A DNA stretch of 64,000 bases from an uncultured Bdellovibrio sp. (lineage in GTDB: Bacteria > Bdellovibrionota > UBA1018): assembly GCA_964490895.1 (NCBI GenBank), contig CAZBEI010000065.1, positions 1,192 through 65,191 of the forward strand. Reading direction: 5' to 3'. Made by a program: the position numbers and the translations under genes. Numbering within the stretch: the stretch's first letter is position 1; each line of letters opens with the position of its first letter. Positions 1,640 through 14,803 of the stretch are shown one piece after another. The notes under the pieces were generated by a model. That model had not been told where the DNA came from, ran no database searches, and was given only the letters and a program-made list of their open reading frames with translations.

Positions 1640-1800
1640 TTCGTGCCCAACCGGACCTCAACTATTCTTATCTTGTTCCAATTCCAGCTGCGCGAAGTTC
1701 TTTCTCGCTTACAGTTCCAGCTTTACAGCAATCAAGAAGCTTTCCGTCCACGACCACAGCGGGGACTCTTGTAATGCCGTACTGCTTTGCCTTATCGTGG
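1640..1800 (-). pseudogene. Fragment of a thioredoxin/glutaredoxin-like gene (and merT 5' end), decayed copy of the 46296-46568 locus
   Basis: About 80-85% nucleotide similarity to 46290-46470; no intact ORF. Confidence 0.4.
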
Positions 1801-2037
1801 CACTCGTTGGTATCAGGTTTTAGCCTGGATGAAATTCAAAGCCTTCTCAACCTCCGAGTCCGCTCCGTAAAACGTTGTAACCAGGTCAGATTCAAAGCTG
1901 AGCAAAAACTAAAGGATGTTCAACAAAAGATGGTGCACCTAAAAAAATTGGAACGTACTCTCAAGAGTCTCGTTTCAGACTGTGAAAATCGCGTGGTCTC
2001 TGATTGTTGCCCGATTATTGAAAAGATGGAGGTTTAG
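1774..2037 (+). pseudogene. MerR-family regulator C-terminal fragment; the N-terminal HTH is missing
   Basis: The translation GFSLDEIQSLLNLRVRSVKRCNQVRFKAEQKLKDVQQKMVHLKKLERTLKSLVSDCENRVVSDCCPIIEKMEV is about 85% identical to the C-terminal half of the intact MerR at 46675-47088. The DNA-binding half is absent. Confidence 0.55.
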
Positions 2038-2039
2038 AG

Positions 2040-2858
2040 ATGGCTGAGCTGAGGCTTATCTACTTTGAGGGATGCCCGAATGCTGAAAGAGTGAGAAGGA
2101 GTTTGGAAGGTACGGGTTATAAGTTTGATGAGGTGATTTTTGGAACGACCACTGGTTCAGAGGGCGGATGCTCATTGGAGATTCCAACGACTCAAGAGAT
2201 TCAAGCCAAGATAGTCGAGGCTGGTGTTAGGGAGACAAAGAAGGCAAAACTTCTTGCGCCAACAGGTTCCCTTGGTTCAATTATAACTGTCATTCTTTGC
2301 CCAGTTTGTAAACCCGCCATTGCGGCGCTCTTAGGATCAGTTGGTCTTGGTTTCGTTGTGAATGAATCAATCTTACAATCTGTTCTGGTTATATTCTTAG
2401 CTCTCACAATCGGCGGCCTGTTATGGTCTTTCTTGAAAGTACATCGCAATATCTGGCCTGTGATTCTTGGAGCAACAATGTCATTGGCGCTTTATCTGGG
2501 CCGCTATGTTTACTTTGGATATATGGAAAACAATGTTTTGACCTATGGAAGTATCGCTGGCCTCGTGGCAGTGAGCATTTGGAATTTCAGACTAAAAAAA
2601 AAAACACCTGTGGTTCGTGTACCAATACAGGTCCTTGAGTTGATTGGAGTAATGATGAGAAAAATTATTTTGACTTTATTGATGGCCATTCCTCTTCAGA
2701 TTTTGGCAGAGAAGTCAAAAACAACTTTTCTCGTGGAGGGGATGACATGCGCATCATGCGCAGGATCGATTGAAAAATCAGTTAGGAAAGTTCCTGAAGT
2801 AGATTCGGTGAACATTTCGGTAAAAGCAGGAAAAGTCACTGTCGGGGAATCAAAATAG
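2040..2858 (+). CDS. Mosaic ORF: thioredoxin-like N-terminus, membrane segment with CPVC motif (MerT-like) and a truncated C-terminal HMA domain (GMTCASC, MerP-like); possibly a fused or decayed MerT-MerP
   Basis: Single 272-aa frame. An internal signal-peptide-like MMRKIILTLLMAIPLQILA precedes the HMA motif. The HMA domain lacks its last ~20 aa. An A11 homopolymer lies at 2594-2604. Confidence 0.3.
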   Translation: MAELRLIYFEGCPNAERVRRSLEGTGYKFDEVIFGTTTGSEGGCSLEIPTTQEIQAKIVEAGVRETKKAKLLAPTGSLGSIITVILCPVCKPAIAALLGSVGLGFVVNESILQSVLVIFLALTIGGLLWSFLKVHRNIWPVILGATMSLALYLGRYVYFGYMENNVLTYGSIAGLVAVSIWNFRLKKKTPVVRVPIQVLELIGVMMRKIILTLLMAIPLQILAEKSKTTFLVEGMTCASCAGSIEKSVRKVPEVDSVNISVKAGKVTVGESK

Positions 2859-3261
2859 AAAGATGCGCCCGACCGATGGACCAAAGCGATTACGTCTCGG
2901 TTTTACTCTGACTTGACAGCAGGCTTGATAAGTCGAGTATTCTTAAGAAGCGCATGAAAGTTCAAATCCCATCCAATTCCGAAATACTTCGGTGGAAAAA
3001 CTCTGTCGTCATCTAAAGAAACCACTTTTTCCTGACAAATTGTGGAGTCTCGTCGTATCAACGGACAACCTAGACATGTGGTTTTGCTCACGTTGGGGAA
3101 TATCCTCGATCCCAATGTTCAGAAAATGCAAGGTCTCAAAAAATCCTGGGTTTGATCAAAAATTACAGGTAAATGTCAATTGACAGCCCAAAGCTCTTTC
3201 GAGGATATTTAACTTTACTTTTTGGATTCAATTATATAAAATAGATCCTATAAGTAAAAAT

Positions 3262-3834
3262 ATGAAGCTCAACAAATTGAAACAAAAAGGAAAAATGGTC
3301 TTTAATACTGAGGATGCACGAAAGATTGGAATTTCGCGACAACTCATTGCCCATTATCTCCATCAGGGATTGATTATACGACTTTCCCATGGTGTCTATC
3401 GTCTAGAAGGCACTGAGAGCATTGATTTTGAAGAACTGATTAAAGAGGTCCTAGCCGCTATTCCAAACTCCGTCATCGGTCTAAAAACGGCTCTAAGAAT
3501 CTATAACCTTACCGAAGAGCTGCCTTCCGAAATTGATATCATTGTGCCCAAAGAAAATGTTCCAAAAAGGAGGCTCGAAAACGTGCGTCTCTATCGCATC
3601 AAAGGGAATATTTATCGACACGATGTAAAACAAATCCATGGACTGCCCGTAACATCTCCTGAAAGAACAGTGATTGATCTTCTTAGATTCAATGAACCCA
3701 TGTCACTCATTTTGGAAGTCCTTGCTGAAGCGAAACAAAAAAGTATTGCCATTAGCATTCCTAAACTTAAAAAGATGAGTAAAATGTTTAGGGTTCAGGG
3801 AAAAATGAAGCAACTTCTTGAGGCGTGGGTATGA
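3262..3834 (+). CDS. AbiEi-family (type IV TA antitoxin-like) wHTH transcriptional regulator
   Basis: 190 aa. N-terminal wHTH (FNTEDARKIGISRQLIAHYLHQGLIIRLSHGVYRL) and a conserved C-terminal TSPERTVIDLL block typical of AbiEi. No AbiEii nucleotidyltransferase follows it. Confidence 0.5.
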   Translation: MKLNKLKQKGKMVFNTEDARKIGISRQLIAHYLHQGLIIRLSHGVYRLEGTESIDFEELIKEVLAAIPNSVIGLKTALRIYNLTEELPSEIDIIVPKENVPKRRLENVRLYRIKGNIYRHDVKQIHGLPVTSPERTVIDLLRFNEPMSLILEVLAEAKQKSIAISIPKLKKMSKMFRVQGKMKQLLEAWV

Positions 3835-3843
3835 CAAAGTGGA

Positions 3844-4074
3844 ATGAAAAGGATTTACGAACTCGTCTATCCACCATACTCCTCGACTTTGATGGTTGCA
3901 GAAGGACTAGACTTAAAAACAGTCAAAGAAATCTGTGGTCACAAAGATATCTCCACACCAATGACGGTTGTGCACTTGAGTTGCAGATTGTATTACAAAT
4001 GTTGCAAAAGTATTCGCAATAGTGCCTGCTGCAACATGTCCAAAGCTTCGTCTTGTCAGTTAGTTTTTGAGTGA
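3844..4074 (+). pseudogene. Tyrosine recombinase (phage-type integrase) C-terminal remnant, frameshifted
   Basis: LMVAEGLDLKTVKEICGHKDIST matches the integrase fragment at 62665-63024. A 1-nt indel destroys the catalytic Tyr region. Confidence 0.6.
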
Positions 4075-4416: not shown

Positions 4417-4638
4417 ATGTTTATGTCTAAGTTAATGTCATGGTTAATTACAGTTGCAATAATGCTCGCTTCAATTGGAGTTCTGGGGAAGGCGACTCTG
4501 TACCTAGCCATAAAAGCAGCAGAGTCTTGTCAATATGAACAGTTTAGTCTTGCAAAGTGGAATAGAGCTTTAGTGGGGCCCGATACTGTGGGTGCTCATT
4601 CAAAAAACAGGAATAAAGACGCTAAAGGCCACCATTAG
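4417..4638 (+). CDS. Small single-TM membrane protein
   Basis: RBS AGGAGG 7 nt upstream. Hydrophobic helix LMSWLITVAIMLASIGVLG. Paired with the RHH gene. Confidence 0.4.
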   Translation: MFMSKLMSWLITVAIMLASIGVLGKATLYLAIKAAESCQYEQFSLAKWNRALVGPDTVGAHSKNRNKDAKGHH

Positions 4639-4809
4639 AGAGAATTCTCCTTTCCAAATGCTTCGAGCCGTTTTTGAATGCAGTCTCTGATTTCTCTAAA
4701 TGAACGAAGACGGTCTTCCTTGGTGGTGCCACTTGACCCAGGATCAGAAAAGGGCCTTTATCTTGGCACTTCCTAGGATATTGCTGCACGCAAAAGCCCG
4801 TGTTTGTCG

Positions 4810-5154
4810 TCAACTTTGAGTAAAGAGCTGATAAAACGGTGGAAATGTTGTGAGCAATCCAAATAATACTAATCCAAATATGATTTTGAGCCAAAATGTT
4901 TCATCTAACTCTCTTTTTTTCATAAAGGTGTTCAAGATAAGCCACCCCATGAAATAGATGAGCACTGCTACACTGGTTTTGCCTGAAAGAGGGCCCACCG
5001 GATCGTAAAAATTTAGAGCAGGCTTAATCATTTTTGGACTTACCTCAGCTAAAATGGTGAGGATGCCCAGAGACGCGCTGCCCATTCCTGCAGCCATCAA
5101 AGCGGCGATCGGTTTTCCGTTTGGAACTAATTGATGTCGAGTAGAAGTCATCAT
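4810..5154 (-). CDS. Hypothetical integral membrane protein
   Basis: 114 aa, three hydrophobic segments. Last gene of the tightly packed minus-strand operon 4810-10012. Confidence 0.4.
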   Translation of the reverse strand: MMTSTRHQLVPNGKPIAALMAAGMGSASLGILTILAEVSPKMIKPALNFYDPVGPLSGKTSVAVLIYFMGWLILNTFMKKRELDETFWLKIIFGLVLFGLLTTFPPFYQLFTQS

Positions 5155-5169
5155 TTTATTCTCCTTTTA

Positions 5170-5700
5170 TTAACGAGTTGCAGCGACTTTGTTGATAAAA
5201 GCTCCAAATAGACCAGCCACTGCAGCAGATGCAAAGGTGATAATGAGAAGCCAAAACAGGGTGCGTCGCATGCGTGGGAAATCCTTAATTCGCTCCCCAT
5301 AATATTGAGCGCTATAGGCGATAGAGGTTAGAAGCATTGGAGCGATCCATGCCACATGCTCTTTCCATTCCATTCCAAACTCATGCCATTCTTTCGTGTT
5401 TGGTTTTGAAAGAAGAAAGTACCGAGGAAAATTAAACAGCTCAGTCCCAGCTACAGGTTTTGCCCGGTACCAGACATAGACAACCCAAGTACCCGTGATC
5501 ACCGTGCCCCAGGCAATGAGGGCCATAGCCCAAAGCCCAAGTTTCAGTCTTCGGCTGTTTTCCATAGCCCCTTCGGGGGTGATCCAGGAAGCCTTGAGTT
5601 CATATAGATCTGCAATAGCGCCGCCAAAAGCCAGCAGAAAGACTGCACCTAAAACCATTCCATGCAACACTGTCCAAATTTCTCGAATACTTAATTCCAT
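5170..5700 (-). CDS. Hypothetical integral membrane protein
   Basis: 176 aa, four predicted TM helices, Trp-rich loops. 16-bp gap to the downstream gene. Confidence 0.45.
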   Translation of the reverse strand: MELSIREIWTVLHGMVLGAVFLLAFGGAIADLYELKASWITPEGAMENSRRLKLGLWAMALIAWGTVITGTWVVYVWYRAKPVAGTELFNFPRYFLLSKPNTKEWHEFGMEWKEHVAWIAPMLLTSIAYSAQYYGERIKDFPRMRRTLFWLLIITFASAAVAGLFGAFINKVAATR

Positions 5701-5719
5701 GTGAGACCCCCTTTTAAAT

Positions 5720-6685
5720 TTATCTCAAATCAGTCACCACTTCTTTATTTTTGAGTATAAGTCGATAATGATATTGTGGATAGTTTTTGCTGAGAATTTT
5801 CTTGGCTTTTTCCTTATCCATAACAAAAGTTGCGGTGGACAAAATGTCACATACCATTGCAGATGGGCCGAGAATGGTTGTGTACAGAAATGCTTGTGCC
5901 GGTCTCAGTTTTTTTGGATCAATGAGATGGTGCCACTTTCCATCTTCAGAATAGCTCTCATTTTCTATGCCCGAAGAAGCAATGGATTCATTCTGAAGTT
6001 CGACCGGAAGGGTGCCCCGAGAGAGTGGATTATAAATCGCCACATTCCATTTTTTCCCATTTGCATGTTCTCCTTTGAGCTTTATATTACCTGAGAAATT
6101 AACCAGATAAGAAGTAATCCCTTGTTGCTCTAAGTAATTTGAAACCAGGTCAACGGCATAACCCTTAGCAATTCCGTCAAGTGTAATTGCCATCGCAGGA
6201 GTGGCAAAAGAAATCTGGTGTGCAGAGACTCTAATTTTACGATAATCAATAAGCAACTTGAGTCGGTCAAGAGATTTTTCGTCAATCAAACCAGAGCCAT
6301 TTTGAAAATGTTTTTTGATCTCCCGCAGGAGTGGCCAAACCGTGATATCAAAGTATCCGTCTGTCTTAGCTCCAGCTTCGATGGCGATTTGAATTATTTT
6401 TTTAAAATGAGTGGAGGGTTCTTCAATAAAGCCTTTCTCATTTAAACGAGAAATTTCGCTATCGATAAGGTAGAGGCTCATTGAGGCTTCTAGGTCATCC
6501 AGTATTTTTTTTATATCGAGCTGATGTTTTTTAGCTTCGGCTGACAAGCATGGATTTACGTACTGAATTTCGAAAACCGTACCCATGCTTGGAATGTGGA
6601 CTATGTGATCACAAAGTGGAGATGCCTGAAGTGGTATACCCATCAGTCCGAGCCAAAAAAAGTATACACTCCACTTAAATTTCAT
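5720..6685 (-). CDS. apbE: ApbE-family FAD:protein FMN transferase (flavin transferase) with signal peptide
   Basis: 321 aa with signal peptide. Contains the MAITLDGIAKGYAVD block matching the ApbE signature. Confidence 0.7.
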   Translation of the reverse strand: MKFKWSVYFFWLGLMGIPLQASPLCDHIVHIPSMGTVFEIQYVNPCLSAEAKKHQLDIKKILDDLEASMSLYLIDSEISRLNEKGFIEEPSTHFKKIIQIAIEAGAKTDGYFDITVWPLLREIKKHFQNGSGLIDEKSLDRLKLLIDYRKIRVSAHQISFATPAMAITLDGIAKGYAVDLVSNYLEQQGITSYLVNFSGNIKLKGEHANGKKWNVAIYNPLSRGTLPVELQNESIASSGIENESYSEDGKWHHLIDPKKLRPAQAFLYTTILGPSAMVCDILSTATFVMDKEKAKKILSKNYPQYHYRLILKNKEVVTDLR

Positions 6686-7130
6686 TTAATATCCATTCTT
6701 TTAGCATTAATAATTCGTCCATTCCGCTGGTCCAAATCTCTCCTCCATCATGGCCGGCACCTTTATTCTGGACTTTGATAAACATCAGACTCTTTTCAGG
6801 GTCTTTTGGCGTAATTTTCTTTAGACTCGACAAGTAATCTTTTTCGGCATCTCCAGTTAAATCAAAAGGCTCTCCCATTCCTTTGTGACACTCAAAACAC
6901 TTGGCTTGCATGTAGGGATAAACTTTTTTGATAAAAACCTGTTTCCCATTGGGAACGGGGGGCGGACTCTCAGTGTTTTTTGGTGCTTCTTTTGGTGAAC
7001 CTGTTTCGGGAGGCTTTGCAGGAGGATTATCAGTTGTCTTTGATGGAGCTGGCAGCCCACGCTTAAAGGGGTGGTCTGCACCACAGGAAAATAAAAACAG
7101 GACAGAAAAAAAAGGGATTAATTTATTCAT
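6675..7130 (-). CDS. Mono-heme c-type cytochrome lipoprotein
   Basis: Lipobox LFSC, a Pro-rich linker, and a single CFECH (CxxCH) haem-binding motif. Confidence 0.5.
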   Translation of the reverse strand: MNKLIPFFSVLFLFSCGADHPFKRGLPAPSKTTDNPPAKPPETGSPKEAPKNTESPPPVPNGKQVFIKKVYPYMQAKCFECHKGMGEPFDLTGDAEKDYLSSLKKITPKDPEKSLMFIKVQNKGAGHDGGEIWTSGMDELLMLKEWILNEI

Positions 7131-7138
7131 ATCAGCTC

Positions 7139-7684
7139 CTATTTTCTAGACTCCTCTTTTTTTAGTACAAAGGCATTAAAAGCAAAACTTGATTTCCTCA
7201 CAGCCTCTGATACGGCTCGAGAGGAGCGCGTAGCTCCTGAAACTGCATCAATGTCGCTTCCCACTTGAAATACCTCCGATGATTTTTTTCCTGAGAATTG
7301 TTTCAGGAACCGAAGTTCTTTTACGGGCTTGCCTCTTTCTTCGGAATATTCGATCACGCGAACAGATCTGATAATTCCGTCTGACTCAAAGCAAACTCCA
7401 ATGGTCATTGGGCCTTCTTTTCCTTCTTGAGGCACAACAGTACAGGCGACTTTTAGATGATCTTTTTCATCTTTTCCAAAATAAAATGTAAAAGAAGCAT
7501 CCGACGAAGTGTCTGCAAGTGTTTTTAGCTTTTTTAATTGTTCTGTGTTTAATACAAATGTCTCTTTAGTTTTTTTAGGAACGCTCGATAGAAATTCTTT
7601 TAGAAAATCTCTTGGTTCTTGCACTATCTCTCCTAAACAGAGGCAAGCAAAGAATGAAAATAAAATAAAGTGATAAAGTATCAT
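7139..7684 (-). CDS. FMN-binding domain protein (NqrC/RnfG/NosR-type FMN_bind), membrane-anchored
   Basis: N-terminal TM helix. C-terminal DAVSGATRSSRAVSEAV matches the FMN_bind flavinylation motif (Thr/Ser target of ApbE). Confidence 0.55.
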   Translation of the reverse strand: MILYHFILFSFFACLCLGEIVQEPRDFLKEFLSSVPKKTKETFVLNTEQLKKLKTLADTSSDASFTFYFGKDEKDHLKVACTVVPQEGKEGPMTIGVCFESDGIIRSVRVIEYSEERGKPVKELRFLKQFSGKKSSEVFQVGSDIDAVSGATRSSRAVSEAVRKSSFAFNAFVLKKEESRK

Positions 7685-8266
7685 CTATACCTCAACTGTG
7701 CCAAGGCTACGAATTTCAGGCCGTCGAAAGACTTCAAATAAAATGACAATCCAAAGCAAACCAAATGATACGGCCATCAGTGTTCCAGCTGCCGCCGTCA
7801 AATAGGCAAAAGACGGGCCTAGCAACCGAGTCACAATAAAACTTAAATTATCTAGTACAATGGTCAAATAAGGCACCCCAACTAAGGCTGTCTTAAATTT
7901 AGTCCCAACTCCTGTAAAAAGGGCCAACAACGTTAATCCAAAAAAGAAACTTGTCATCCCAAATAGATGGAAGTGTCCTTCGGCTACAAATTTTTTCATG
8001 CCCGGTTGCGAAACAGGAGGAGCCACCGTAGCTGTTTTAGCATCCAAGTCGAATGCTTCTTCCTTCTGTGCCACAACATTTGTTTTAATTTTTTCAGACG
8101 CTCCATAGTAATGAAGCGCGATTTGATCTGGTTTTAGACCTACGACCAGCGCAACATTGACGAGAGCGTAAATATATCCTGCAGTCAATGATAGCAAGTA
8201 TCCTAGAACAAGCGCTTTTAGAGGAAGAGGGGCATTTCTTAATTTAAATCTAAAAAATTCGTTCAC
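7685..8266 (-). CDS. Hypothetical integral membrane protein
   Basis: 193 aa, four or five hydrophobic helices. Abuts the FMN-binding gene with no gap. Confidence 0.45.
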   Translation of the reverse strand: MNEFFRFKLRNAPLPLKALVLGYLLSLTAGYIYALVNVALVVGLKPDQIALHYYGASEKIKTNVVAQKEEAFDLDAKTATVAPPVSQPGMKKFVAEGHFHLFGMTSFFFGLTLLALFTGVGTKFKTALVGVPYLTIVLDNLSFIVTRLLGPSFAYLTAAAGTLMAVSFGLLWIVILFEVFRRPEIRSLGTVEV

Positions 8267-8275
8267 TTTTTCTCC

Positions 8276-9316
8276 TTAAAAATCAAGCGCAAACATCAGA
8301 CGGAATAAATCATTGGGTTTTTCATCAAGTGCTTCGAGGTTCCATTGGTATTCGAGTATAAATTTCATAACGTCGATCGGAAATACAAAAGACAAATCAA
8401 AAGAGTGTGAATCTTGTTGGCTTTTTTGCTGTGAATTATTAATGTAAGTCCCATAGCGAATTCGAGGCTCAACAAAACCTAAAGCATTTGTTGCCAACTC
8501 AATATAATCTCCATATTTTCTAAAATTTCCTAATAATCCCTGAAAAATTTTAGCATCAGCAAAACCCAGTCCTAATTTTAGGTTTTTTAAAACCGGGAGA
8601 TTGACAAGATGATAATCAGTCCATAGGTCTCCTCCTAAAAGAACGAGAGGTTTTCCAATTTGCCACTGTGTGTAGTAACCCGATAGAATGAGTTTAATCT
8701 TTTCGAATGGAAATCCTGAGAGCCTGAGTCCCAGGGCCTGGGTGTTTGGGTCCGCGGGCAAGTTTAATTCTACGTCTTTGTCAGCTTTAGGTTCTCCAAA
8801 ACCATTGACGAGATAAGTATCTAAATTCCATTGATTTATCTCAAAGGTAAGTATGGCCCCATTTTCAGCCCAAATATTGGGAAACATCACTCCTTTTGCA
8901 GCAAATCCTTGTACACCCCCATAAAGATGATGGTAACGAGAAGTATCTCCAAAAGGGATCAGCACTTTTCCAAGATACGCTATTATTTTTTCAGTTGGCT
9001 TATAAATAATTTCTAAAAAACTTTTTGAGATGATTTCTCCTAAAAACGAAACTTTTTCTGAAGCATTGAGTTTTAAAAAAACTAAGAAATGATTATTTTT
9101 AAAGGTGTCATTTTGTCTGATCAGAGAAGGATTTTGATAGGGAGAAATTTCGTAAGACAAATCTAGTCTCCCTATCAATTTGAAAGGGATTTTTTCAGCT
9201 TGTGTGTTTACGTGTTTTGGAACTATTTCGGGAGAGTCTAGGTCTAAACTTTCCTCAGCCCATCCTTCAGAGAGCAGTAAAAAAACAAATAAGCTTAGTA
9301 AACCTATTTTTTTCAT
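8276..9316 (-). CDS. Putative outer-membrane beta-barrel protein
   Basis: Signal peptide, alternating amphipathic strands, C-terminal ..FALDF ending in Phe. Confidence 0.5.
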   Translation of the reverse strand: MKKIGLLSLFVFLLLSEGWAEESLDLDSPEIVPKHVNTQAEKIPFKLIGRLDLSYEISPYQNPSLIRQNDTFKNNHFLVFLKLNASEKVSFLGEIISKSFLEIIYKPTEKIIAYLGKVLIPFGDTSRYHHLYGGVQGFAAKGVMFPNIWAENGAILTFEINQWNLDTYLVNGFGEPKADKDVELNLPADPNTQALGLRLSGFPFEKIKLILSGYYTQWQIGKPLVLLGGDLWTDYHLVNLPVLKNLKLGLGFADAKIFQGLLGNFRKYGDYIELATNALGFVEPRIRYGTYINNSQQKSQQDSHSFDLSFVFPIDVMKFILEYQWNLEALDEKPNDLFRLMFALDF

Positions 9317-9325
9317 TCCGTACTC

Positions 9326-10012
9326 CTAAGGCTCTTTTTTGAGAAGAGTCTCACCCACTCTTTTCCAATCACCAGGGGCTGTAAATTTTAAAGTATTCAT
9401 TATTTTTTGTATGTTAGAAAGTATGTCGTTTGCCCTGTAAATAGTGACCTCATAGTTATCTCCTTGGTCTTTTGATATTCCAGTCCACACAAAAAACCAC
9501 TTGTGCGGTACTCCTTTTAGTTGATAGACAAAACTAATAAGGTGGGGGGATTGTGGGTCGTTTGGATTTTCTTGCCAGTCTCGACTCCATATTTGGCTGG
9601 ATTCGAACTCATTTTTTCCCATGATTTTTTGATCAGTATGAATCACTAATCGTTGCACGTCATTTTGTTCATAGTAAATATCTGCATTCCCTGTGATTTT
9701 AAAGGTGTGCCCTAGGGTCGGAGTGAGTTCAATTTTTTCAGTTTTAAATCTTAAAGTGGGATCAGGAGACATCACTTCGTCTACTTTTAGGTCATAGGCA
9801 CCTTCGAAAGAAGAAGCGAGCTTCAGATCTCGATCTGTGAGTATCCCAATTAATCGCCCCTCTTCTTGGACTGGAAGGTGTCGAATTCGATACTCCCTCA
9901 TCATCTCAAGTGCTTTTTTTAAACCGATATCATTCCCAATAGAATGTGGCATTGGGGTCATGTATGTTTGAATTTGAGGTATTTGTTTCATCTTTCTTTC
10001 TCCTTGAGTCAA
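9326..10012 (-). CDS. CBS-pair domain protein with uncharacterised C-terminal domain
   Basis: The N-terminal ~130 aa show two CBS motifs (HLPVQEEGRLIGILTDRDL). First gene of the minus-strand operon. Confidence 0.55.
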   Translation of the reverse strand: MTQGERKMKQIPQIQTYMTPMPHSIGNDIGLKKALEMMREYRIRHLPVQEEGRLIGILTDRDLKLASSFEGAYDLKVDEVMSPDPTLRFKTEKIELTPTLGHTFKITGNADIYYEQNDVQRLVIHTDQKIMGKNEFESSQIWSRDWQENPNDPQSPHLISFVYQLKGVPHKWFFVWTGISKDQGDNYEVTIYRANDILSNIQKIMNTLKFTAPGDWKRVGETLLKKEP

Positions 10013-10184
10013 ATCTTTAAATGATTCTTAAAGAGCATTAGCAAATTCTAGGCCATTCGATACAAGCTACAAAAAATTGAAATAAAAAATAGGACGGGAC
10101 ATTTTGGCGCAGAAGTTGTTTTTTATGTCCCATCTCAACTTTTAAAAGAAATCCATTTGGCCTTGTTTACTCTAGCCATATAAG

Positions 10185-11162: not shown

Positions 11163-12599
11163 ATGATTACTCCCACAAAAGGAAAGGTCCTCATAGTAGA
11201 CGACGACATGGAGATGAGATCACTTCTTGAGGATTATCTCAAGAGTGAAAACTTTCAAGTAAAAAGCTTTGCAAATGGCGTGGAGGCCCTTGAAGACTTA
11301 GAACTCCAGAGCTCTGAGACTGATTTAATTATTTCAGATATTAAGATGCCCCAAATGGATGGGTTAGAACTTACTTCAAAGCTCACGCACATTTTACCCA
11401 AAATTCCGATTCTATTAATCACTGCTTTTGGAAGCATCGAAACAGCACTTGAGGCCATGAAAAGAGGCGCATTTCATTATATTGTAAAACCTTTCAAACT
11501 TGCCGAAATGGCCGTGCATATTGAGAAGGCTTTAGAACATAGAAGACTTCAAAGAGATAACGAGGCTCTTCGAAAAGAGATAAAACAGTCCTGGGGTTTA
11601 GGAAATATCCTTGGAAAAAGCCAGGCCATGAAATCGGTCTTTGATTTAGTAACTCGTGTTTCTCAAACAACCGCGAATGTGCTCATCATGGGTGAAAGCG
11701 GGACAGGCAAAGAAATGGTAGCTCGCGCCATACACAAAACGGGCCCCAGGGCTCAAAAGCCTTTTGTTGCTATCAATTGCACGGCTATTCCCGAAACTCT
11801 TTTAGAGTCAGAGCTCTTTGGACATGCAAAAGGGTCTTTTACGGGAGCGCATCAAAGAAAACAGGGACTCTTCGAAGAGGCTGAGGGTGGGACTCTCTTT
11901 TTAGATGAGATTGGGGATATGGATGGCACTCTTCAATCTAAACTACTCAGAGTGATTCAAGAAAAGAAAGTCAGAGCTGTTGGAGACAACACGCTTCGAG
12001 ACATCAATGTAAGAATTATTGCAGCTACTCATAAAGACTTAAAAGCAGCGATGAAAGATGGCCGCTTTCGTGAAGATCTTTACTACCGCTTGAGCGTTAT
12101 TCCTATTTTGATTCCGCCCTTAAGGGAACGAAAAGAAGATATCCCATTATTGGCAGAGCATTTTTTAAAAAAATACTCTGCTACAAATAACACAAATGTG
12201 CGTGGATTCACAAAAAGCGCGATGAATAAACTCCTCACCCTGCGTTGGGAAGGGAACGTGCGCGAACTTGAAAATATTATTGAAAGGGCTGTTGTTTTGA
12301 GTTCTGGCACTTTCATTGACGAAAGGGACTTGCCCTCTCCAGAAACTCAAAATCCAGAACAGTTTTTTTCTTCTTCTACAGGAGACTTCCCTACGATCGA
12401 TCAACTCGAAAAAAGATACATGGGTCTCGTGCTCGAAAAATCAGGAGGCAGAAAAGACAAAGCAGCACAGATTTTAGGGATTAATAGAAGGACTCTCTAC
12501 CGCAAAGAAAGAGAATATGGCTTTATTACAGAGCAAGGCGATGAAATCCAAGAACAAAGTGATAAAATCCAAGAGGAGGAGGAGACTAAAAAACTTTAA
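11163..12599 (+). CDS. Sigma-54-dependent Fis-family response regulator (NtrC-like: REC + AAA+ sigma-54 activator + HTH)
   Basis: REC domain with phospho-acceptor Asp (LIISDIKMP). Walker A GESGTGKE. GAFTGA-type loop GSFTGA. C-terminal Fis-like HTH. 10-bp gap after uspA, so cotranscribed. Confidence 0.85.
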   Translation: MITPTKGKVLIVDDDMEMRSLLEDYLKSENFQVKSFANGVEALEDLELQSSETDLIISDIKMPQMDGLELTSKLTHILPKIPILLITAFGSIETALEAMKRGAFHYIVKPFKLAEMAVHIEKALEHRRLQRDNEALRKEIKQSWGLGNILGKSQAMKSVFDLVTRVSQTTANVLIMGESGTGKEMVARAIHKTGPRAQKPFVAINCTAIPETLLESELFGHAKGSFTGAHQRKQGLFEEAEGGTLFLDEIGDMDGTLQSKLLRVIQEKKVRAVGDNTLRDINVRIIAATHKDLKAAMKDGRFREDLYYRLSVIPILIPPLRERKEDIPLLAEHFLKKYSATNNTNVRGFTKSAMNKLLTLRWEGNVRELENIIERAVVLSSGTFIDERDLPSPETQNPEQFFSSSTGDFPTIDQLEKRYMGLVLEKSGGRKDKAAQILGINRRTLYRKEREYGFITEQGDEIQEQSDKIQEEEETKKL

Positions 12600-13776
12600 A
12601 CCAAATTGTAAAAACACTTCCCACTCCCAATTCACTCAGGACAGAAATTTCGCCACCCATTTCCTTTAGCAATTGAACAACAATTGCTAAACCCAAGCCT
12701 GTACCTTCTCCCACGTCTTTTGTAGTAAAAAAAGGTTTAAAAAGCTTATTTGTATTTTTTGGGTCAATCCCGCAACCGGTGTCCTTGATTTCAATGGCCA
12801 CTTTTTGCCCATGAACACTTGCTTTAATGTACAGTTGGTGTCCTGTTTTTCTTCCATCTCGAATCGCCTTATGAATGGCTTGAATCGCGTTCATCACTAA
12901 ATTTAAAATCGTTTGTTCTAAACGCCCATAATCTGCTTTTACTTTTATTTCGTCTGAGATGTCTGTCTTAATTTCTACTCCATCTTCTTTAAGATTTTGC
13001 CCTACGAGAGACAAAACCTCGTGCACAACTTGTGTAATGCTCACTTCTTCAATACGAAAATCACTAGTCCTTCGCCCCATTCTTAAGAGTGAACGAATGA
13101 GCTTAGAAATTTTATCAATTTGAGAAATAATAATTTCCAAATCTTTTTTAGGTAATTCGTCTTTGGACTGTAATATTAAAAACTCAGCTCTTCCACGAAT
13201 CACTCCAAGCGGGGTGCCCACTTCGTGCGCAAGACCACTCGAGAGCAACCCAATGGAGGCAAGTCGGTCTTGATGAAAAATTTTTGCCTCAAGTTCTTTT
13301 TTCTGAGTCATGTTTAGAGCCACACCCATGTAGCCTAAAATTTCGCCCATTTCTGACTTAAATGGAGTAATGGTCAAAAATACGGGCACATACGTTCCAT
13401 CTTTGGCACGATTGACGAGCTCGCCTTTCCAATGTGCAATTTTAGGGTCCCGAATTTTTGACCACATTTCTCTGTAAAACTCTTTGGATTGGAACCCAGA
13501 ATGCAAAAGTCCGGGAGTTTGCCCAATGGCTTCTGCATTAGAATAACCATAAGTTTGGCTCCAAGCAGGGTTGACGTAGACCAGATGACCGTCTTTGTCA
13601 CTAATCATGATGGTTTCATTGCTGTCTTCGACACATCTAAAAAAGATATTTTTGGGATCGAAATTAATCTCTAAGGGCATGAGTCCTTTTAACATCATTT
13701 CGACGTTCTTGACAGCACTTGTCTTATAAGGACGAGAAAAAATGTCCTTTTTTTTTGATTTTTGGGACAAAAACAC
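12586..13776 (-). CDS. Soluble PAS-domain sensor histidine kinase
   Basis: PAS domain (MISDKDGHLVYVNPAWSQTYGYS), HisKA H-box LAHEVGTPLG, and HATPase_c G-boxes (DTGCGI, GTGLGL). Its 3' end overlaps the response-regulator stop by 14 bp, convergent. Confidence 0.8.
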   Translation of the reverse strand: MFLSQKSKKKDIFSRPYKTSAVKNVEMMLKGLMPLEINFDPKNIFFRCVEDSNETIMISDKDGHLVYVNPAWSQTYGYSNAEAIGQTPGLLHSGFQSKEFYREMWSKIRDPKIAHWKGELVNRAKDGTYVPVFLTITPFKSEMGEILGYMGVALNMTQKKELEAKIFHQDRLASIGLLSSGLAHEVGTPLGVIRGRAEFLILQSKDELPKKDLEIIISQIDKISKLIRSLLRMGRRTSDFRIEEVSITQVVHEVLSLVGQNLKEDGVEIKTDISDEIKVKADYGRLEQTILNLVMNAIQAIHKAIRDGRKTGHQLYIKASVHGQKVAIEIKDTGCGIDPKNTNKLFKPFFTTKDVGEGTGLGLAIVVQLLKEMGGEISVLSELGVGSVFTIWFKVF

Positions 13777-13869: not shown

Positions 13870-14226
13870 ATGCACAAAATAAAATGCTTGGTTGGATTGG
13901 GTTTTATATTTTTGTATCAGGGAGCTTCGGCAGGTCCTCCAAAGTCTTCGCCCGAACTTATTGCAAAAGGAAAAGCCTCTTATGTGACCAACTGTTTGAC
14001 CTGTCATGGCGAAAATGGCGATGGCAATGGTCCTGCTGGACAGTACATGAATCCAAAACCTAGATCCTATACAAAAGATAAGTTTAAAAAGGGAGAGAAA
14101 CCTGAACAGGTTTTTAAAACCATTACAGCAGGGATTGATGGAACAGCAATGACTGGGTTTGGTCATTTGCCAGAAGACGAAAGATGGGGCCTTGTGTATT
14201 ACGTGCTTTCGTTTAAGAAAAAATAG
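13870..14226 (+). CDS. Class I c-type cytochrome (secreted, mono-heme), likely electron donor to NirK
   Basis: Signal peptide, CLTCH haem motif, distal Met region. RBS GGAG 9 nt upstream. Confidence 0.7.
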   Translation: MHKIKCLVGLGFIFLYQGASAGPPKSSPELIAKGKASYVTNCLTCHGENGDGNGPAGQYMNPKPRSYTKDKFKKGEKPEQVFKTITAGIDGTAMTGFGHLPEDERWGLVYYVLSFKKK

Positions 14227-14230
14227 CTAC

Positions 14231-14590
14231 TTACTCCAATTGTTTTATTTCTAGTTCGGGCATCTCTATCAAAAAAGCACGTGAAATCTCGCCAAAAGAA
14301 GTACCTTTTTGATAGACAAAGCTGGCCGCAGATTGTTCTGGAGCAAACCTCAAAGTTTTTGAATCCACAGCAGAAATTTTAGAAAACGCTTTCTTGAGGA
14401 GAGGAATTTGTTCTTTTGAGTGAAAGCCTTTGATTTCAATGACTACATAATGATTTCTAGTTTTTTCTGCCATTCTTTTATTTTTGTAAGAATAAACAGA
14501 AGCGGCCTTATCCCCCACACAAAAACCACAGGCAATGGCCTGAACGTGTGCCACTAAAAACAAAAACCCAGCCAAATAGATTATTTTCAT
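14231..14590 (-). CDS. Hypothetical small lipoprotein (CGFC motif)
   Basis: 119 aa, signal peptide with AIACGFC. No recognisable domain. Confidence 0.35.
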   Translation of the reverse strand: MKIIYLAGFLFLVAHVQAIACGFCVGDKAASVYSYKNKRMAEKTRNHYVVIEIKGFHSKEQIPLLKKAFSKISAVDSKTLRFAPEQSAASFVYQKGTSFGEISRAFLIEMPELEIKQLE

Positions 14591-14725
14591 ACCTCTCTCT
14601 TATTCATAAAATGGGCCAAGCAAAAAACCTAATTATTTTACTCTCTCAAGCTTAAAACAGAACCACAGATGGGACTAAATGTCACTCGCATGAGGCATAT
14701 TTTCTTCCTGCCGTGGCTTCTATTT

Positions 14726-14746
14726 TTTAAATCTAACGGATTTAAA
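14726..14746 (+). promoter_or_regulatory. Perfect 8-N5-8 palindrome TTTAAATC-taacg-GATTTAAA upstream of nirK (candidate regulator or IHF-type site)
   Basis: Seen directly in the sequence, 12 bp upstream of the -24 element of the nirK promoter motif. Confidence 0.3.
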
Positions 14747-14757
14747 GGGTTTTTTTT

Positions 14758-14773
14758 TGGCAAGGTTTATGCA
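14758..14773 (+). promoter_or_regulatory. Sigma-54 promoter-like motif TGGCAA-N5-ATGCA upstream of nirK
   Basis: Canonical GG/GC spacing, 31 bp upstream of the ATG at 14804. Confidence 0.45.
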
Positions 14774-14803
14774 TTTAATAAGACTTAATAGGAGGGTTTT
14801 ATC

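What the first reader, a model, noticed from the sequence alone, without database searches (positions are those of the whole stretch)
4810..10012. Nine-gene operon combining ApbE flavin transferase, a membrane-anchored FMN-binding protein, a cytochrome c lipoprotein, membrane proteins and an outer-membrane barrel
ApbE (MAITLDGIAKGYAVD) covalently flavinylates FMN_bind domains, and the adjacent protein carries the target motif DAVSGATRSSRAV. Added to these are a mono-heme CxxCH lipoprotein, three small membrane proteins, an outer-membrane barrel and a CBS-domain protein, all overlapping or under 20 bp apart. The set resembles flavin-based extracellular/periplasmic electron-transfer systems (the Listeria FmnB/PplA logic) but in a diderm arrangement I do not recognise. 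It does not look like Nqr, Rnf or NosR.
Basis: partly seen in the sequence, partly recalled or inferred. Interest (0 to 1): 0.65.

Follow-up and report, generated by a model that had tools for sequence, protein, structure and literature searches.

The report
Porin-linked flavin and haem electron relay
Five of these eight genes form a conserved, undescribed envelope module that most likely passes electrons between the inner membrane and a dedicated outer-membrane pore, through a protein with covalently attached flavin and a small lipid-anchored cytochrome.

Summary
There are eight co-directional genes, not nine, and only five of them form a conserved unit.

The conserved unit, in fixed order, is:
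- an OprP-like 16-strand porin
- a 4-helix inner-membrane protein of Pfam family Aq_1264_TM (PF27139, no known function)
- a secreted FMN_bind protein with an intact flavinylation motif
- a FoxE-like mono-haem lipoprotein
- ApbE

This order recurs in about 30 loci from Bdellovibrionota, Rhodothermales, Gemmatimonadota, Eisenbacteria and Myxococcota. The two distal membrane genes are a separate, very widespread two-gene module. The CBS gene is accessory.

Aq_1264_TM is the new element. It has about 1,000 clusters at 50% identity and a family-wide invariant HxH at the periplasmic face. Distant members also sit beside barrels and FMN_bind genes. Some are fused to ApbE, and 34 of 145 carry a CxxCH haem motif in the periplasmic loop that is homologous to the separate cytochrome here.

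The porin N-terminus and the membrane protein's loop share the same acidic short motif, which varies in parallel by lineage.

Best reading: a periplasm-spanning flavin/haem relay between the quinone pool and a small substrate admitted by the porin. Substrate and direction are unknown. It is not Rnf, Nqr, NosR, PepSY, MsrQ or DsbD.

The parts
8276..9316 (-). Outer-membrane 16-strand porin (346 aa), OprP-like, with a signal peptide. The mature N-terminus carries the acidic motif EESLDLD (res 21-27, nt 9236-9256). The conserved inward L3-like loop is PFGDTSRYHHLYGG (res 121-134, nt 8915-8956). The protein ends in Phe. Core part.
7685..8266 (-). Inner-membrane 4-helix protein (193 aa) of family Aq_1264_TM (PF27139). 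N- and C-termini are predicted cytoplasmic. The periplasmic loop (res 43-89) holds H52-Y53-Y54 and the acidic motif EEAFDLD (res 69-75, nt 8042-8062). The invariant H98-F99-H100 (nt 7967-7975) sits at the periplasmic start of helix 2. D139/N140 lie within the membrane and R147 at the periplasmic end of helix 3. Core part and the novel element.
7139..7684 (-). Secreted FMN_bind protein (181 aa) and predicted ApbE substrate. Flavinylation motif S149-G-A-T152 (nt 7229-7240). Its start codon abuts the stop codon of the TM gene. Core part.
   Evidence: Pfam PF04205, E 5e-12. RnfG models are well below cut-off. Closest solved chain is RnfG 9ERI_G, E 0.0026. The motif is conserved in 29 of 30 homologues; L033 reads SSAT. 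AXA-type signal peptides in homologues.
6675..7130 (-). Mono-haem c lipoprotein (151 aa). It has a lipobox LFSC, then the conserved mature N-terminus C-G-A-D-H-P-F-K-R-G (nt 7056-7085), then a Pro-rich linker of about 45 aa. A FoxE/PSCyt1-like haem domain follows, with CFECH (res 78-82, nt 6885-6899) and a conserved later His in GHDGG (res 126-130). Core part.
   Evidence: Profile against PDB: FoxE 5MAB, E 6.3e-6 over the whole domain. hhalign to the haem-bearing loop of Aq_1264_TM relatives: 95.6%, E 1.2e-8. Present in 30 of 33 loci.
5720..6685 (-). ApbE FAD:protein FMN transferase (321 aa) with a signal peptide. It overlaps the cytochrome gene by 11 nt. Core part (maturation enzyme).
   Evidence: Pfam PF02424, E 4.9e-62, profile positions 1-260 of 266. 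Follows the cytochrome gene in 22 of the related loci.
9326..10012 (-). CBS-domain protein: one CBS domain at res 16-64, plus about 130 aa of unknown C-terminal domain. The likely true start is the ATG at 9991. Accessory and co-transcribed here.
   Evidence: Pfam PF00571, E 7.5e-12. Homologue near the module only in L015 and L018. A CBS-pair protein sits directly upstream of the TM176 homologue in L046.
5170..5700 (-). 176-aa membrane protein, first gene of an independent widespread two-gene module. Not part of the conserved system.
   Evidence: Absent from all 30 related loci. More than 473 metagenome matches at 50-68% identity, none with ApbE or FMN_bind nearby. No Pfam or NCBIfam hit.
4810..5154 (-). 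114-aa membrane protein, second gene of the same independent module.
   Evidence: Follows the TM176 homologue in 75 of 80 metagenome loci.
10040..10055 (-). Candidate sigma-54 -24/-12 element TGGCCTAGAATTTGCT, about 50 nt upstream of the ATG at 9991. Tentative.
   Evidence: An NtrC-type sigma-54 activator (11163-12599) and a soluble PAS histidine kinase (12586-13776) lie next door. Similar kinase or regulator genes lie near the module in 7 other loci. A comparable promoter was found in only 1 of 27 other loci, so it is not a conserved feature.

Best explanation
Window 5720-9316 encodes a conserved five-gene envelope module. In my reading it is a short electron relay across the periplasm.

(1) ApbE, secreted to the periplasm, attaches FMN covalently to Thr152 of the secreted FMN_bind protein. 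This step is inferred from the domain and motif.

(2) The FMN protein and the lipid-anchored mono-haem cytochrome work at the periplasmic face of the 4-helix inner-membrane protein (Aq_1264_TM). That protein's invariant HxH, conserved Tyr, Glu and Arg, and a buried Asp/Asn form a site open to the periplasm. I take this site to exchange electrons with membrane quinol, possibly through a bound haem or metal. This step is inferred.

(3) Electrons then pass from FMN to haem c. The cytochrome sits on a Pro-rich tether of about 45 residues that could reach across the periplasm.

(4) The dedicated OprP-like porin admits the small, probably anionic or metal-chelate redox substrate. It also helps hold the relay in place. 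Its mature N-terminus and the inner-membrane protein's periplasmic loop carry the same acidic motif ([DE][DE]-x-hydrophobic-[DSNG]-hydrophobic-D/E). I read these as two docking sites for the same periplasmic carrier.

I favour outward (reductive) flow, because the carriers are a flavin and a probably bis-His haem. Both the substrate and the direction are unknown.

The CBS gene and the 176- and 114-aa membrane genes are neighbours, not parts of the module.
For: Shown here:
- Fixed gene order of porin, TM, FMN_bind and cytochrome in 30-32 of 33 loci, followed by ApbE in 22, across five phyla.
- The flavinylation motif is kept in 29 of 30 homologues; L033 reads SSAT.
- CxxCH plus a conserved later His in the cytochrome.
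- The porin fold.
- The HxH is invariant across a superfamily of 1057 clusters at 50% identity.

Links between the parts:
- In distant family members the TM gene again lies next to FMN_bind: L116 and L120 with 4-nt overlaps, L117, L125. It also lies next to a barrel: L117, L119, L120, L121, L123, L124, L125.
- 34 of 145 relatives carry an invariant CxxCH in the periplasmic loop about 40 residues before the HxH. That segment is homologous to the separate cytochrome here (hhalign 95.6%, E 1.2e-8).
- Two relatives are fused to ApbE.

The shared acidic motif:
- Present in 25 of 32 TM proteins, always 27-43 residues before the HxH.
- Present in 16 of 24 full-length porins, in 15 of them just after the signal peptide.
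- Present in only 9 of 361 background ORFs, 0 of 30 FMN proteins and 0 of 29 cytochromes.
- Its flavour is the same in both proteins within a lineage: LDLD in Bdellovibrionota, SFDD/GFDD in Rhodothermales.

Extra redox proteins join the module in some lineages:
- An EB_dh haem-b lipoprotein (Pfam 1e-33).
- A multihaem c554/MtrC-like cytochrome.
- A di-haem protein.

This fits the 'modular flavin/cytochrome usage' described in PMC8238504.
Against: - No catalytic oxidoreductase and no recognised quinone-binding, NAD(P)H-binding or Fe-S protein is in the module.
- The inner-membrane protein has no conserved residue on the cytoplasmic side that could carry electrons across the membrane. Its cofactor, if any, is unknown, and its fold matches only generic helix bundles.
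- H52 is not conserved outside this clade.
- One subfamily pairs the TM protein with an FMN_bind-like protein that lacks the flavinylation motif (L119). The covalent flavin is therefore not essential to the family.
- The barrels beside the different subfamilies show no detectable sequence homology to each other.
- The context of distant relatives rests on only nine loci.
- The carriers are mostly aerobes, which does not fit anaerobic mineral respiration.
- Docking through the acidic motif was not modelled.
Confidence: 0.5

Rival explanations
1. The same hardware runs inward, as an iron(II) or other electron-donor oxidation pathway resembling a 'split Cyc2/FoxE'. Fe(II) enters or meets the porin and is oxidised by the FoxE-like cytochrome. 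Electrons then pass through the flavoprotein and the inner-membrane protein to the quinone pool or an oxidase.
For: - The cytochrome domain's best solved relative is FoxE, the iron oxidase of Rhodobacter ferrooxidans (E 6.3e-6).
- The porin is a 16-strand OprP-like barrel, the same structural class reported for Cyc2.
- In L124 a haem-loop Aq_1264_TM gene follows a barrel whose N-terminus reads AVPSFARQMGGMQCAACHTVFPEL. This nearly matches the Cyc2-specific motif AXPXFAR[QK][TY], then 5 aa, then CXXCH, then PXL. A class I cytochrome c follows.
Against: - The FoxE match is at the level of a widespread haem domain; the same motifs occur in hydrazine synthase.
- The conserved distal residue here is His, not the Met of FoxE. 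Together with a flavin this suggests low potentials poorly suited to accepting electrons from Fe(II).
- This porin has no fused haem domain.
- The Cyc2-like link is a single locus whose gene is split by a frameshift.
- No oxidase or bc1 genes are linked.
Confidence: 0.15
2. Reductive metal assimilation. The porin admits a ferric (or cupric) chelate, the flavin/haem pair reduces it in the periplasm, and the HxH membrane protein is the permease for the reduced ion. Electrons would come from a donor encoded elsewhere.
For: - Many ApbE gene clusters are tied to iron reduction and uptake (PMC8238504).
- The invariant HxH, with conserved Tyr, Glu, Asp and Met at or near the periplasmic face, resembles a metal site.
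- A dedicated porin fits uptake.
- The hosts are aerobes, for which iron is scarce.
Against: - No Fur-box-like site within 300 nt upstream of the porin gene in 0 of 27 loci.
- No FTR1, VIT1, FeoB, P19 or TonB receptor is linked.
- A single 4-helix bundle with conserved residues on only one face is an unlikely ion pathway unless it oligomerises.
- Haem c inserted in the loop, and added multihaem or haem-b partners, point to electron transfer as the family's business.
Confidence: 0.15
3. Flavin trafficking. The Aq_1264_TM protein delivers FAD across or along the inner membrane to ApbE, or salvages flavins that enter through the porin. It would not carry electrons.
For: - Two relatives are fused to ApbE.
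- In L117 the gene follows a fused ECF S/T-type transporter of the kind used for flavin export in Listeria.
- The route by which FAD reaches ApbE is described as still obscure (PMC12052999).
- FAD and FMN are phosphate anions, and the porin is OprP-like.
Against: - The tightest and deepest linkage is to FMN_bind and to a barrel, not to ApbE. ApbE is absent from the Vulgatibacter locus, and no ApbE was found in the short stretch held after the TM gene pair in L119.
- A quarter of the sampled relatives carry covalent haem c in the loop, which has no place in flavin transport.
- Four helices are too small to pass FAD as a monomer.
Confidence: 0.08
4. It is a known complex (Rnf, Nqr, NosR/NapH, PepSY, MsrQ or DsbD type) with diverged or mis-sized subunits, or a chance juxtaposition of unrelated genes.
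For: The FMN_bind protein's nearest named relatives are RnfG subunits.
Against: - RnfG models score 24-43 bits against cut-offs of 102-230.
- No other subunit family of those systems hits any protein of the cluster at E 0.1.
- Gene order conserved across five phyla excludes chance.
Confidence: 0.02

Closest known systems
ApbE-dependent extracytosolic electron-transfer systems surveyed by Meheust et al. 2021 and Huang et al. 2024 (NapH-like, MsrQ-like, PepSY-like, DsbD, Nqr/Rnf-like, DUF4405)
   Same: - A secreted ApbE and a secreted FMN_bind substrate with the [ST]GA[ST] motif.
- A small membrane protein encoded beside them.
- Cytochromes and flavoproteins used interchangeably.
   Different: - The membrane partner is a different family (Aq_1264_TM). 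It has four helices and only two invariant His, both at the periplasmic face.
- It has no Fe-S, no bis-haem His quartet, no Cys pairs and no NAD-binding domain.
- A dedicated porin is a constant partner. The sections of those two surveys that I read do not describe this for any class.
RnfG / NqrC subunits of Rnf and Na+-NQR
   Same: An FMN_bind fold with covalent FMN on the periplasmic side. RnfG is the closest solved relative (9ERI_G).
   Different: - Scores are far below family cut-offs.
- The protein has a cleavable signal peptide rather than an uncleaved anchor in most homologues.
- None of the other five Rnf/Nqr subunits is present.
Listeria flavin-based extracellular electron transfer (FmnB, PplA, Ndh2, EetA/B, DmkA/B)
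   Same: The logic is shared: an ApbE-type transferase makes a flavinylated extracytosolic carrier, which small membrane proteins of unknown mechanism connect to the quinone pool.
   Different: - This is a diderm setting with a porin and a c-type cytochrome.
- No Ndh2, Dmk genes or PplA-type lipoprotein is present.
- Homology of Aq_1264_TM to EetA/EetB was not tested.
Cyc2 fused cytochrome-porin of iron oxidisers
   Same: A 16-strand OprP-like barrel working with a single c-type haem. One distant Aq_1264_TM gene (L124) directly follows a Cyc2-like gene.
   Different: - Here the porin has no haem domain and no AXPXFAR motif.
- The haem is on a separate lipoprotein of a different, FoxE-like domain type.
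- A flavoprotein and an inner-membrane partner are added.
FoxE di-haem cytochrome (foxEYZ, Rhodobacter ferrooxidans SW2; PDB 5MAB)
   Same: The same haem domain type, with shared motifs: F..(I/V).P(I/L)L...CxxCH, PG.PE.S, and a C-terminal WI..GA.
   Different: - One domain instead of two.
- A lipid anchor and a long linker.
- Probably a His rather than a Met distal ligand.
- No FoxY or FoxZ neighbours.

Membership tests
ApbE flavin transferase (PF02424) | Full-length match to the ApbE family profile above the curated cut-off | tested here: met
   210 bits against a cut-off of 25.6, profile positions 1-260 of 266
ApbE flavin transferase (PF02424) | Extracytosolic location (signal peptide or lipobox) | tested here: met
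   N-terminal hydrophobic signal MKFKWSVYFFWLGLMGIPLQA in the window. Sec, lipobox or Tat-type signals in homologues. Judged by eye, with no predictor run.
ApbE flavin transferase (PF02424) | FAD-dependent transfer of FMN to a target Thr/Ser | not testable with these tools
   Needs biochemistry
ApbE substrate of FMN_bind type (PF04205) | FMN_bind domain above the cut-off | tested here: met
   46.7 bits against a cut-off of 22
ApbE substrate of FMN_bind type (PF04205) | Conserved [ST]GA[ST] flavinylation motif | tested here: met
   SGAT at residues 149-152. D-x-[VI]-[ST]-G-A-[TS]-x-[ST]-[ST] in the 30 aligned homologues, with L033 reading SSAT.
ApbE substrate of FMN_bind type (PF04205) | Covalent FMN actually attached | not testable with these tools
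   Needs UV-fluorescent SDS-PAGE or mass spectrometry
Aq_1264_TM (PF27139) | Match to the family model | tested here: met
   The model is absent from the local Pfam copy. A 100% identical database protein (P0001) and all 69 first-round homologues carry the precomputed PF27139 label. The label's name is given.
Aq_1264_TM (PF27139) | Four-helix membrane core with HxH at the start of helix 2 (my working definition from the alignment) | tested here: met
   H98 and H100 are invariant in 32 diverse members. Four long helices in the AF2 model.
Rnf / Na+-NQR | RnfG/NqrC equivalog score | tested here: not met
   TIGR01947 43 bits against 102; NF045876 41.5 against 205; NF041840 30.5 against 230
Rnf / Na+-NQR | RnfD/NqrB, RnfA/E or NqrD/E, and RnfC/B or NqrF/A subunits in the cluster | tested here: not met
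   No such Pfam or NCBIfam hit for any of the eight proteins at E 0.1
NosR / NapH-like | Polytopic membrane protein with cytoplasmic Fe-S cluster motifs, often fused to FMN_bind | tested here: not met
   NosR model 14 bits against 1000. No Cys-rich membrane protein in the cluster.
PepSY-like / MsrQ-like / DUF4405 membrane cytochromes b | Four conserved transmembrane His forming two haem b sites across the membrane | tested here: not met
   Only two family-wide His, both at the periplasmic face. No Pfam hit.
Listeria-type flavin-based extracellular electron transfer | Ndh2, DmkA/B and PplA-type multi-FMN lipoprotein in the locus | tested here: not met
   None among the window ORFs or related loci scanned
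Listeria-type flavin-based extracellular electron transfer | EetA/EetB membrane proteins | not tested
   No EetA/EetB sequences were available for comparison with Aq_1264_TM
Cyc2 fused cytochrome-porin | 16-strand OprO/OprP-like barrel | tested here: met
Cyc2 fused cytochrome-porin | N-terminal fused haem domain with AXPXFAR[QK][TY] and CXXCH | tested here: not met
   The window porin has no Cys at all in its N-terminal region and no such motif
FoxE-type cytochrome | Homologous haem-binding domain | tested here: met
   Profile against 5MAB_A: E 6.3e-6, profile positions 8-94 aligned to FoxE 177-288
FoxE-type cytochrome | Two haem domains, His/Met ligation, foxY/foxZ neighbours | tested here: not met
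   One CxxCH in the window protein. The conserved candidate ligand is His. No PQQ propeller or DMT transporter nearby.
MtrCAB / porin-cytochrome conduits | Barrel of 20 or more strands sheathing a multihaem cytochrome | tested here: not met
   16 strands with an inward loop. Mono-haem partner in the window.

The most novel reading that the evidence does not exclude
Aq_1264_TM plus its adjacent barrel defines a previously unrecognised, widespread trans-envelope redox apparatus of diderm bacteria.

The inner-membrane HxH protein would be a new kind of quinol-linked electron gate. The same acidic docking peptide on the inner-membrane protein and on the porin would let one periplasmic carrier shuttle between the two membranes. 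That carrier could be flavin, haem, or both, free or fused. Cyc2-type porin-cytochromes would be one outer-membrane partner among several.
Probability: 0.25. Interest if true: 0.85.

Novelty: new variant of a known kind. Interest (0 to 1): 0.66.

Why it matters
ApbE-flavinylated proteins are known to carry electrons outside the cytoplasm in about half of all bacteria. Many such gene clusters still lack a known link to the membrane.

- This finding supplies a candidate link. It is a small membrane protein family of about 1,000 clusters at 50% identity, with no described function, that consistently sits beside flavin or haem carriers and a porin.
- It also gives concrete handles for experiment: an invariant HxH, a flavinylation Thr, a single haem, and an acidic docking motif repeated on both membranes.
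- If the relay reading is right, it shows how a diderm can connect its quinone pool to a porin-delivered substrate without a multihaem conduit.
- It may connect flavin-based and Cyc2/FoxE-type iron redox systems.
- If the flavin-trafficking reading is right, it bears on the open question of how FAD reaches ApbE.

Tried and rejected
- **Near-identical DNA in plasmids:** none found.
- **Exact-sequence look-up of the window protein and its identical database twin:** not on record.
- **Sigma-54 promoter as a conserved feature:** found in the window and 1 of 27 other loci, against a background of about 0.03 per 400 nt. Not significant, so kept only as a local lead.
- **Fur boxes upstream of the porin genes:** 0 of 27. 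This is a weak negative, because the consensus used is proteobacterial.
- **Rfam scan of the whole window:** no FMN riboswitch or any other family.
- **Sequence homology between this porin family and the barrels next to distant Aq_1264_TM genes:** none detectable by hhalign. Only the association is conserved, not a demonstrable common porin lineage.
- **NCBIfam models for the barrels and distant TM proteins:** none.
- **NirK and the class I cytochrome c 4-6 kb away as functional partners:** rejected, because neither recurs in the related loci.
- **Literature searches for aq_1264, PF27139, or a porin plus ApbE plus FMN-binding system:** nothing found.

Full report
**1. What is in the window**

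Between 4810 and 10012 the minus strand carries eight ORFs. They are separated by at most 19 nt or overlap. In transcription order:

| Coordinates | Size | Identity | Evidence |
|---|---|---|---|
| 9326-10012 | 228 aa | CBS-domain protein; likely true start is the ATG at 9991 | PF00571 |
| 8276-9316 | 346 aa | secreted protein ending in Phe | no family hit |
| 7685-8266 | 193 aa | membrane protein | no family hit |
| 7139-7684 | 181 aa | FMN_bind protein | E 5e-12 |
| 6675-7130 | 151 aa | lipoprotein with one CxxCH | |
| 5720-6685 | 321 aa | ApbE | E 5e-62 |
| 5170-5700 | 176 aa | membrane protein | no family hit |
| 4810-5154 | 114 aa | membrane protein | no family hit |

I find eight. The only further ORF is 4622-4894, which overlaps the last gene.

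NCBIfam places the FMN_bind protein nearest to RnfG, but far below every cut-off (43 bits against 102). NosR scores 14 bits against 1000.

**2. Which genes belong together**

Homologues of the 193-aa protein carry the precomputed label PF27139, Aq_1264_TM. This family is absent from the local Pfam copy.

A scan of one genome per species gave 30 loci:
- Bdellovibrionota
- Rhodothermales and other Bacteroidota
- Gemmatimonadota
- Candidatus Eisenbacteria
- one MAG deposited as Pseudomonadota
- one MAG deposited as uncultured bacterium

Two further look-ups added a marine Bdellovibrionaceae locus and Vulgatibacter of the Myxococcota.

I called ORFs in all loci, then searched and clustered them against the window proteins. 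Of 33 loci, counting the window:

| Protein | Loci |
|---|---|
| 346-aa barrel | 32 |
| membrane protein | 33 |
| FMN_bind | 31 |
| cytochrome | 30 |
| ApbE | 23 |

They always occur in the window's order. The shortfalls are mostly contig ends.

The 176-aa and 114-aa proteins occur in none of these loci. A metagenome scan with the 176-aa protein found more than 473 relatives at 50-68% identity. The 114-aa homologue followed it in 75 of the 80 loci kept. Not one of those loci had ApbE, FMN_bind, the barrel or the cytochrome. Their neighbours vary: Usp, CBS-pair proteins, cupredoxins, DoxX.

So the 'operon' is a five-gene conserved module (5720-9316). It is flanked by a CBS gene and by an unrelated two-gene membrane module. 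In L046 a CBS-pair gene sits directly upstream of the 176-aa homologue. The five-gene module may therefore have been inserted between such neighbours.

**3. The parts**

*Membrane protein.* The model (pLDDT 84) has four long helices and a short helix at 46-54. By the positive-inside rule both ends are cytoplasmic, and residues 43-89 form a periplasmic loop.
- Within the clade, the invariant residues include H52, Y53, E69, P88, K91, E96, G97, H98, F99, H100, D139, N140, R147 and M164.
- All three His lie at the periplasmic face.
- There is no match to solved structures, by sequence or by fold beyond generic helix bundles.

*FMN_bind protein.*
- The motif D-x-[VI]-[ST]-G-A-[TS]-x-[ST]-[ST] is present in 29 of the 30 aligned homologues; L033 reads SSAT.
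- Most homologues have AXA-type cleavable signal peptides.

*Cytochrome.*
- Every homologue has a lipobox followed by a conserved mature N-terminus C-G-x3-P-[FL]-x-R-G. A low-complexity linker comes next, then one haem domain, or two in four loci.
- The domain keeps CxxCH, a PG-x-PE-x-S stretch, a later His in G-H-G-G-G, and a C-terminal W-I.
- Its best solved relative is FoxE (5MAB), E 6.3e-6 over the whole domain.
- The same motifs occur in hydrazine synthase, so this is a domain-family match and not a functional assignment.

**4. The membrane protein family at large**

An exhaustive profile search of 1.84 billion representatives found 1057 clusters at E up to 1e-3 and 394 at E up to 1e-10. 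Only 12 reached 1e-30, so the window's clade is a small branch of a large family.

In an alignment of 32 diverse members, only H98 and H100 are invariant, and Y53 is nearly so.

I could read the context of nine distant members:

| Locus | Gene order |
|---|---|
| L116 | FMN_bind overlapping the TM gene by 4 nt |
| L120 | barrel, FMN_bind, TM, ApbE |
| L117 | NusG_II, fused ECF S/T-type transporter, TM, 404-aa barrel, FMN_bind, ApbE |
| L119 | BBP2 porin, TM, FMN_bind-like protein without the flavinylation motif |
| L121 | BBP2 porin, TM |
| L122 | TM, then the start of an FMN_bind-like protein resembling that of L119; the contig starts 43 nt before the TM gene and no barrel is seen |
| L123 | barrel, TM |
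| L124 | barrel, TM, class I cytochrome c |
| L125 | barrel with an acidic N-terminus, FMN_bind, TM, TM fused to ApbE |

A barrel next to the TM gene is thus the most constant association. A flavin or haem carrier comes second.

**5. Fusion evidence**

- Two relatives are fused to a complete ApbE, through a lipobox-like fifth helix that would put ApbE in the periplasm.
- 34 of 145 top relatives carry CxxCH in the periplasmic loop about 40 residues before the HxH.
- In an alignment of 20 such proteins, the Cys, Cys, His and both HxH histidines are invariant, and an upstream Met is nearly invariant.
- A profile-profile comparison shows that this loop segment is homologous to the haem-binding half of the window's separate cytochrome (95.6%, E 1.2e-8).

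A domain that is a separate lipoprotein here is therefore built into the membrane protein elsewhere. This argues that the two proteins work in contact, and that the family's business is redox chemistry at the periplasmic face.

**6. A shared docking-like motif**

The periplasmic loop of the membrane protein and the mature N-terminus of the porin carry the same short acidic motif. In the window these are EEAFDLD and EESLDLD.

| Set | Proteins with the motif (one regular expression) | Position |
|---|---|---|
| Membrane proteins | 25 of 32 | always 27-43 residues before HxH |
| Full-length porins | 16 of 24 | 15 of the 16 at ORF positions 20-43 |
| FMN proteins | 0 of 30 | - |
| Cytochromes | 0 of 29 | - |
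| Other ORFs | 9 of 361 | - |

The flavour changes in parallel in both proteins: LDLD or LNLD in Bdellovibrionota, SFDD or GFDD in Rhodothermales. I interpret this as two docking sites, one on each membrane, for the same periplasmic partner. This is an inference, and no complex model could be run.

**7. Accessory proteins and regulation**

Extra proteins that join the module in some lineages:
- Rhodothermales and Gemmatimonadota insert an EB_dh haem-b lipoprotein between the porin and the TM gene (Pfam 1e-33).
- Rhodothermales and Eisenbacteria add a multihaem c554/MtrC-like cytochrome.
- Six Bdellovibrionota loci add a di-haem protein after ApbE.

A PAS histidine kinase and/or a sigma-54 NtrC-type regulator lie near the module in seven loci and in the window.

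A -24/-12-like element lies at 10040-10055, upstream of the CBS gene. A comparable element was found in only one other locus. No Fur-box-like sites were found.

**8. Interpretation**

The cofactor set is a covalent flavin and haem c, with added haem proteins in some lineages. Together with the fusions and the fixed pairing with a porin, it fits a short electron relay between the inner membrane and a substrate that enters through the porin.

The membrane protein has no conserved residue that could carry electrons across the bilayer. It most likely exchanges electrons with quinol at its periplasm-facing polar site, with or without a bound haem or metal.

I favour outward flow, because a flavin and a probably bis-His haem are low-potential carriers. 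Three rival readings remain open and are scored separately:
- inward flow, as Fe(II) oxidation of a split Cyc2/FoxE type
- reductive metal uptake, with the HxH protein as the permease
- flavin delivery to ApbE

The Cyc2 lead rests on one locus. In L124 the barrel's N-terminus reads AVPSFARQMGGMQCAACHTVFPEL, against the published Cyc2 motif AXPXFAR[QK][TY], then 5 aa, then CXXCH, then PXL.

**9. Comparison with what is known**

The two surveys of flavinylation-associated systems list Nqr, Rnf, NosR/NapH-like, MsrQ-like, PepSY-like, DsbD, Nqr/Rnf-like, the Listeria system and DUF4405/FezC.
- None of these uses this membrane family, and none is described with a dedicated porin in the sections I read.
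- Full-text searches for the family name or accession, or for such a gene set, found nothing.
- The 2025 ApbE review does not mention porins.

I therefore rate the module as a new variant within the known kind 'ApbE-dependent extracytosolic electron-transfer systems'.

**10. Limits**

- Function is inferred entirely from sequence, predicted structure and gene context.
- ORFs in related loci were called mechanically.
- The context of distant relatives covers nine loci.
- The barrels of the different subfamilies are not demonstrably homologous.
- Lipoprotein sorting, topology and haem ligation are predictions.

Noticed in passing
window 4810-5700 (-): The 176-aa and 114-aa membrane proteins form their own two-gene module. 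It has more than 473 metagenome matches, the pair is kept in 75 of 80 loci, and it has no Pfam or NCBIfam family. Its neighbours are often stress- or redox-related (Usp, CBS pair, cupredoxin, DoxX). Function unknown.
   Followed up: partly
window 9326-10012 (-); L046 258-938: The CBS protein has a single CBS domain plus about 130 aa of unassigned C-terminal domain. In L046 a CBS-pair gene lies directly upstream of the 176-aa homologue. This suggests the five-gene module was inserted between such neighbours in the window.
   Followed up: partly
window 10040-10055 (-), 11163-13776: A sigma-54-like -24/-12 element lies upstream of the cluster. Next to it are an NtrC-type activator and a soluble PAS histidine kinase. 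Similar regulators lie near the module in seven other loci, but the promoter motif itself is not conserved.
   Followed up: partly
window 13870-15829 (+): A class I cytochrome c is followed by a copper nitrite reductase-like protein that scores below the NirK equivalog cut-off (197 against 296 bits). It is not linked to the module in other genomes.
   Followed up: no
window 1774-4074 (+): Remnants of a mobile element lie just beyond the cluster: a MerR C-terminal fragment, a MerC-HMA fusion, an AbiEi antitoxin and a short integrase fragment.
   Followed up: partly
L124 136-2693: A barrel with a Cyc2-like N-terminus (AVPSFARQ...CAACH...PEL), split by a frameshift or stop codon, is followed by a haem-loop Aq_1264_TM gene and a class I cytochrome c. 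This is a possible link between this membrane family and Cyc2-type iron oxidation.
   Followed up: partly
L119 5546-6115; L122 659-970: FMN_bind-like proteins lacking the [ST]GA[ST] motif sit next to Aq_1264_TM genes in one subfamily. The covalent flavin is therefore dispensable for some family members.
   Followed up: no
window 7056-7085 (-) and homologues: The mature lipoprotein N-terminus C-G-x3-P-[FL]-x-R-G of the cytochrome is conserved across five phyla. It loosely recalls the P-x-F-A-R motif at the mature N-terminus of Cyc2. Its role (sorting or docking to the porin) is unknown.
   Followed up: no
L009, L011, L017, L018 (cytochrome genes): In four Bdellovibrionota loci the cytochrome lipoprotein carries two tandem haem domains instead of one, like the two-domain FoxE.
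   Followed up: no
L125 4548-6682: Two Aq_1264_TM paralogues lie in tandem, and the second is fused to ApbE. The barrel upstream again starts with an acidic motif (EVETDDLTLD).
   Followed up: no
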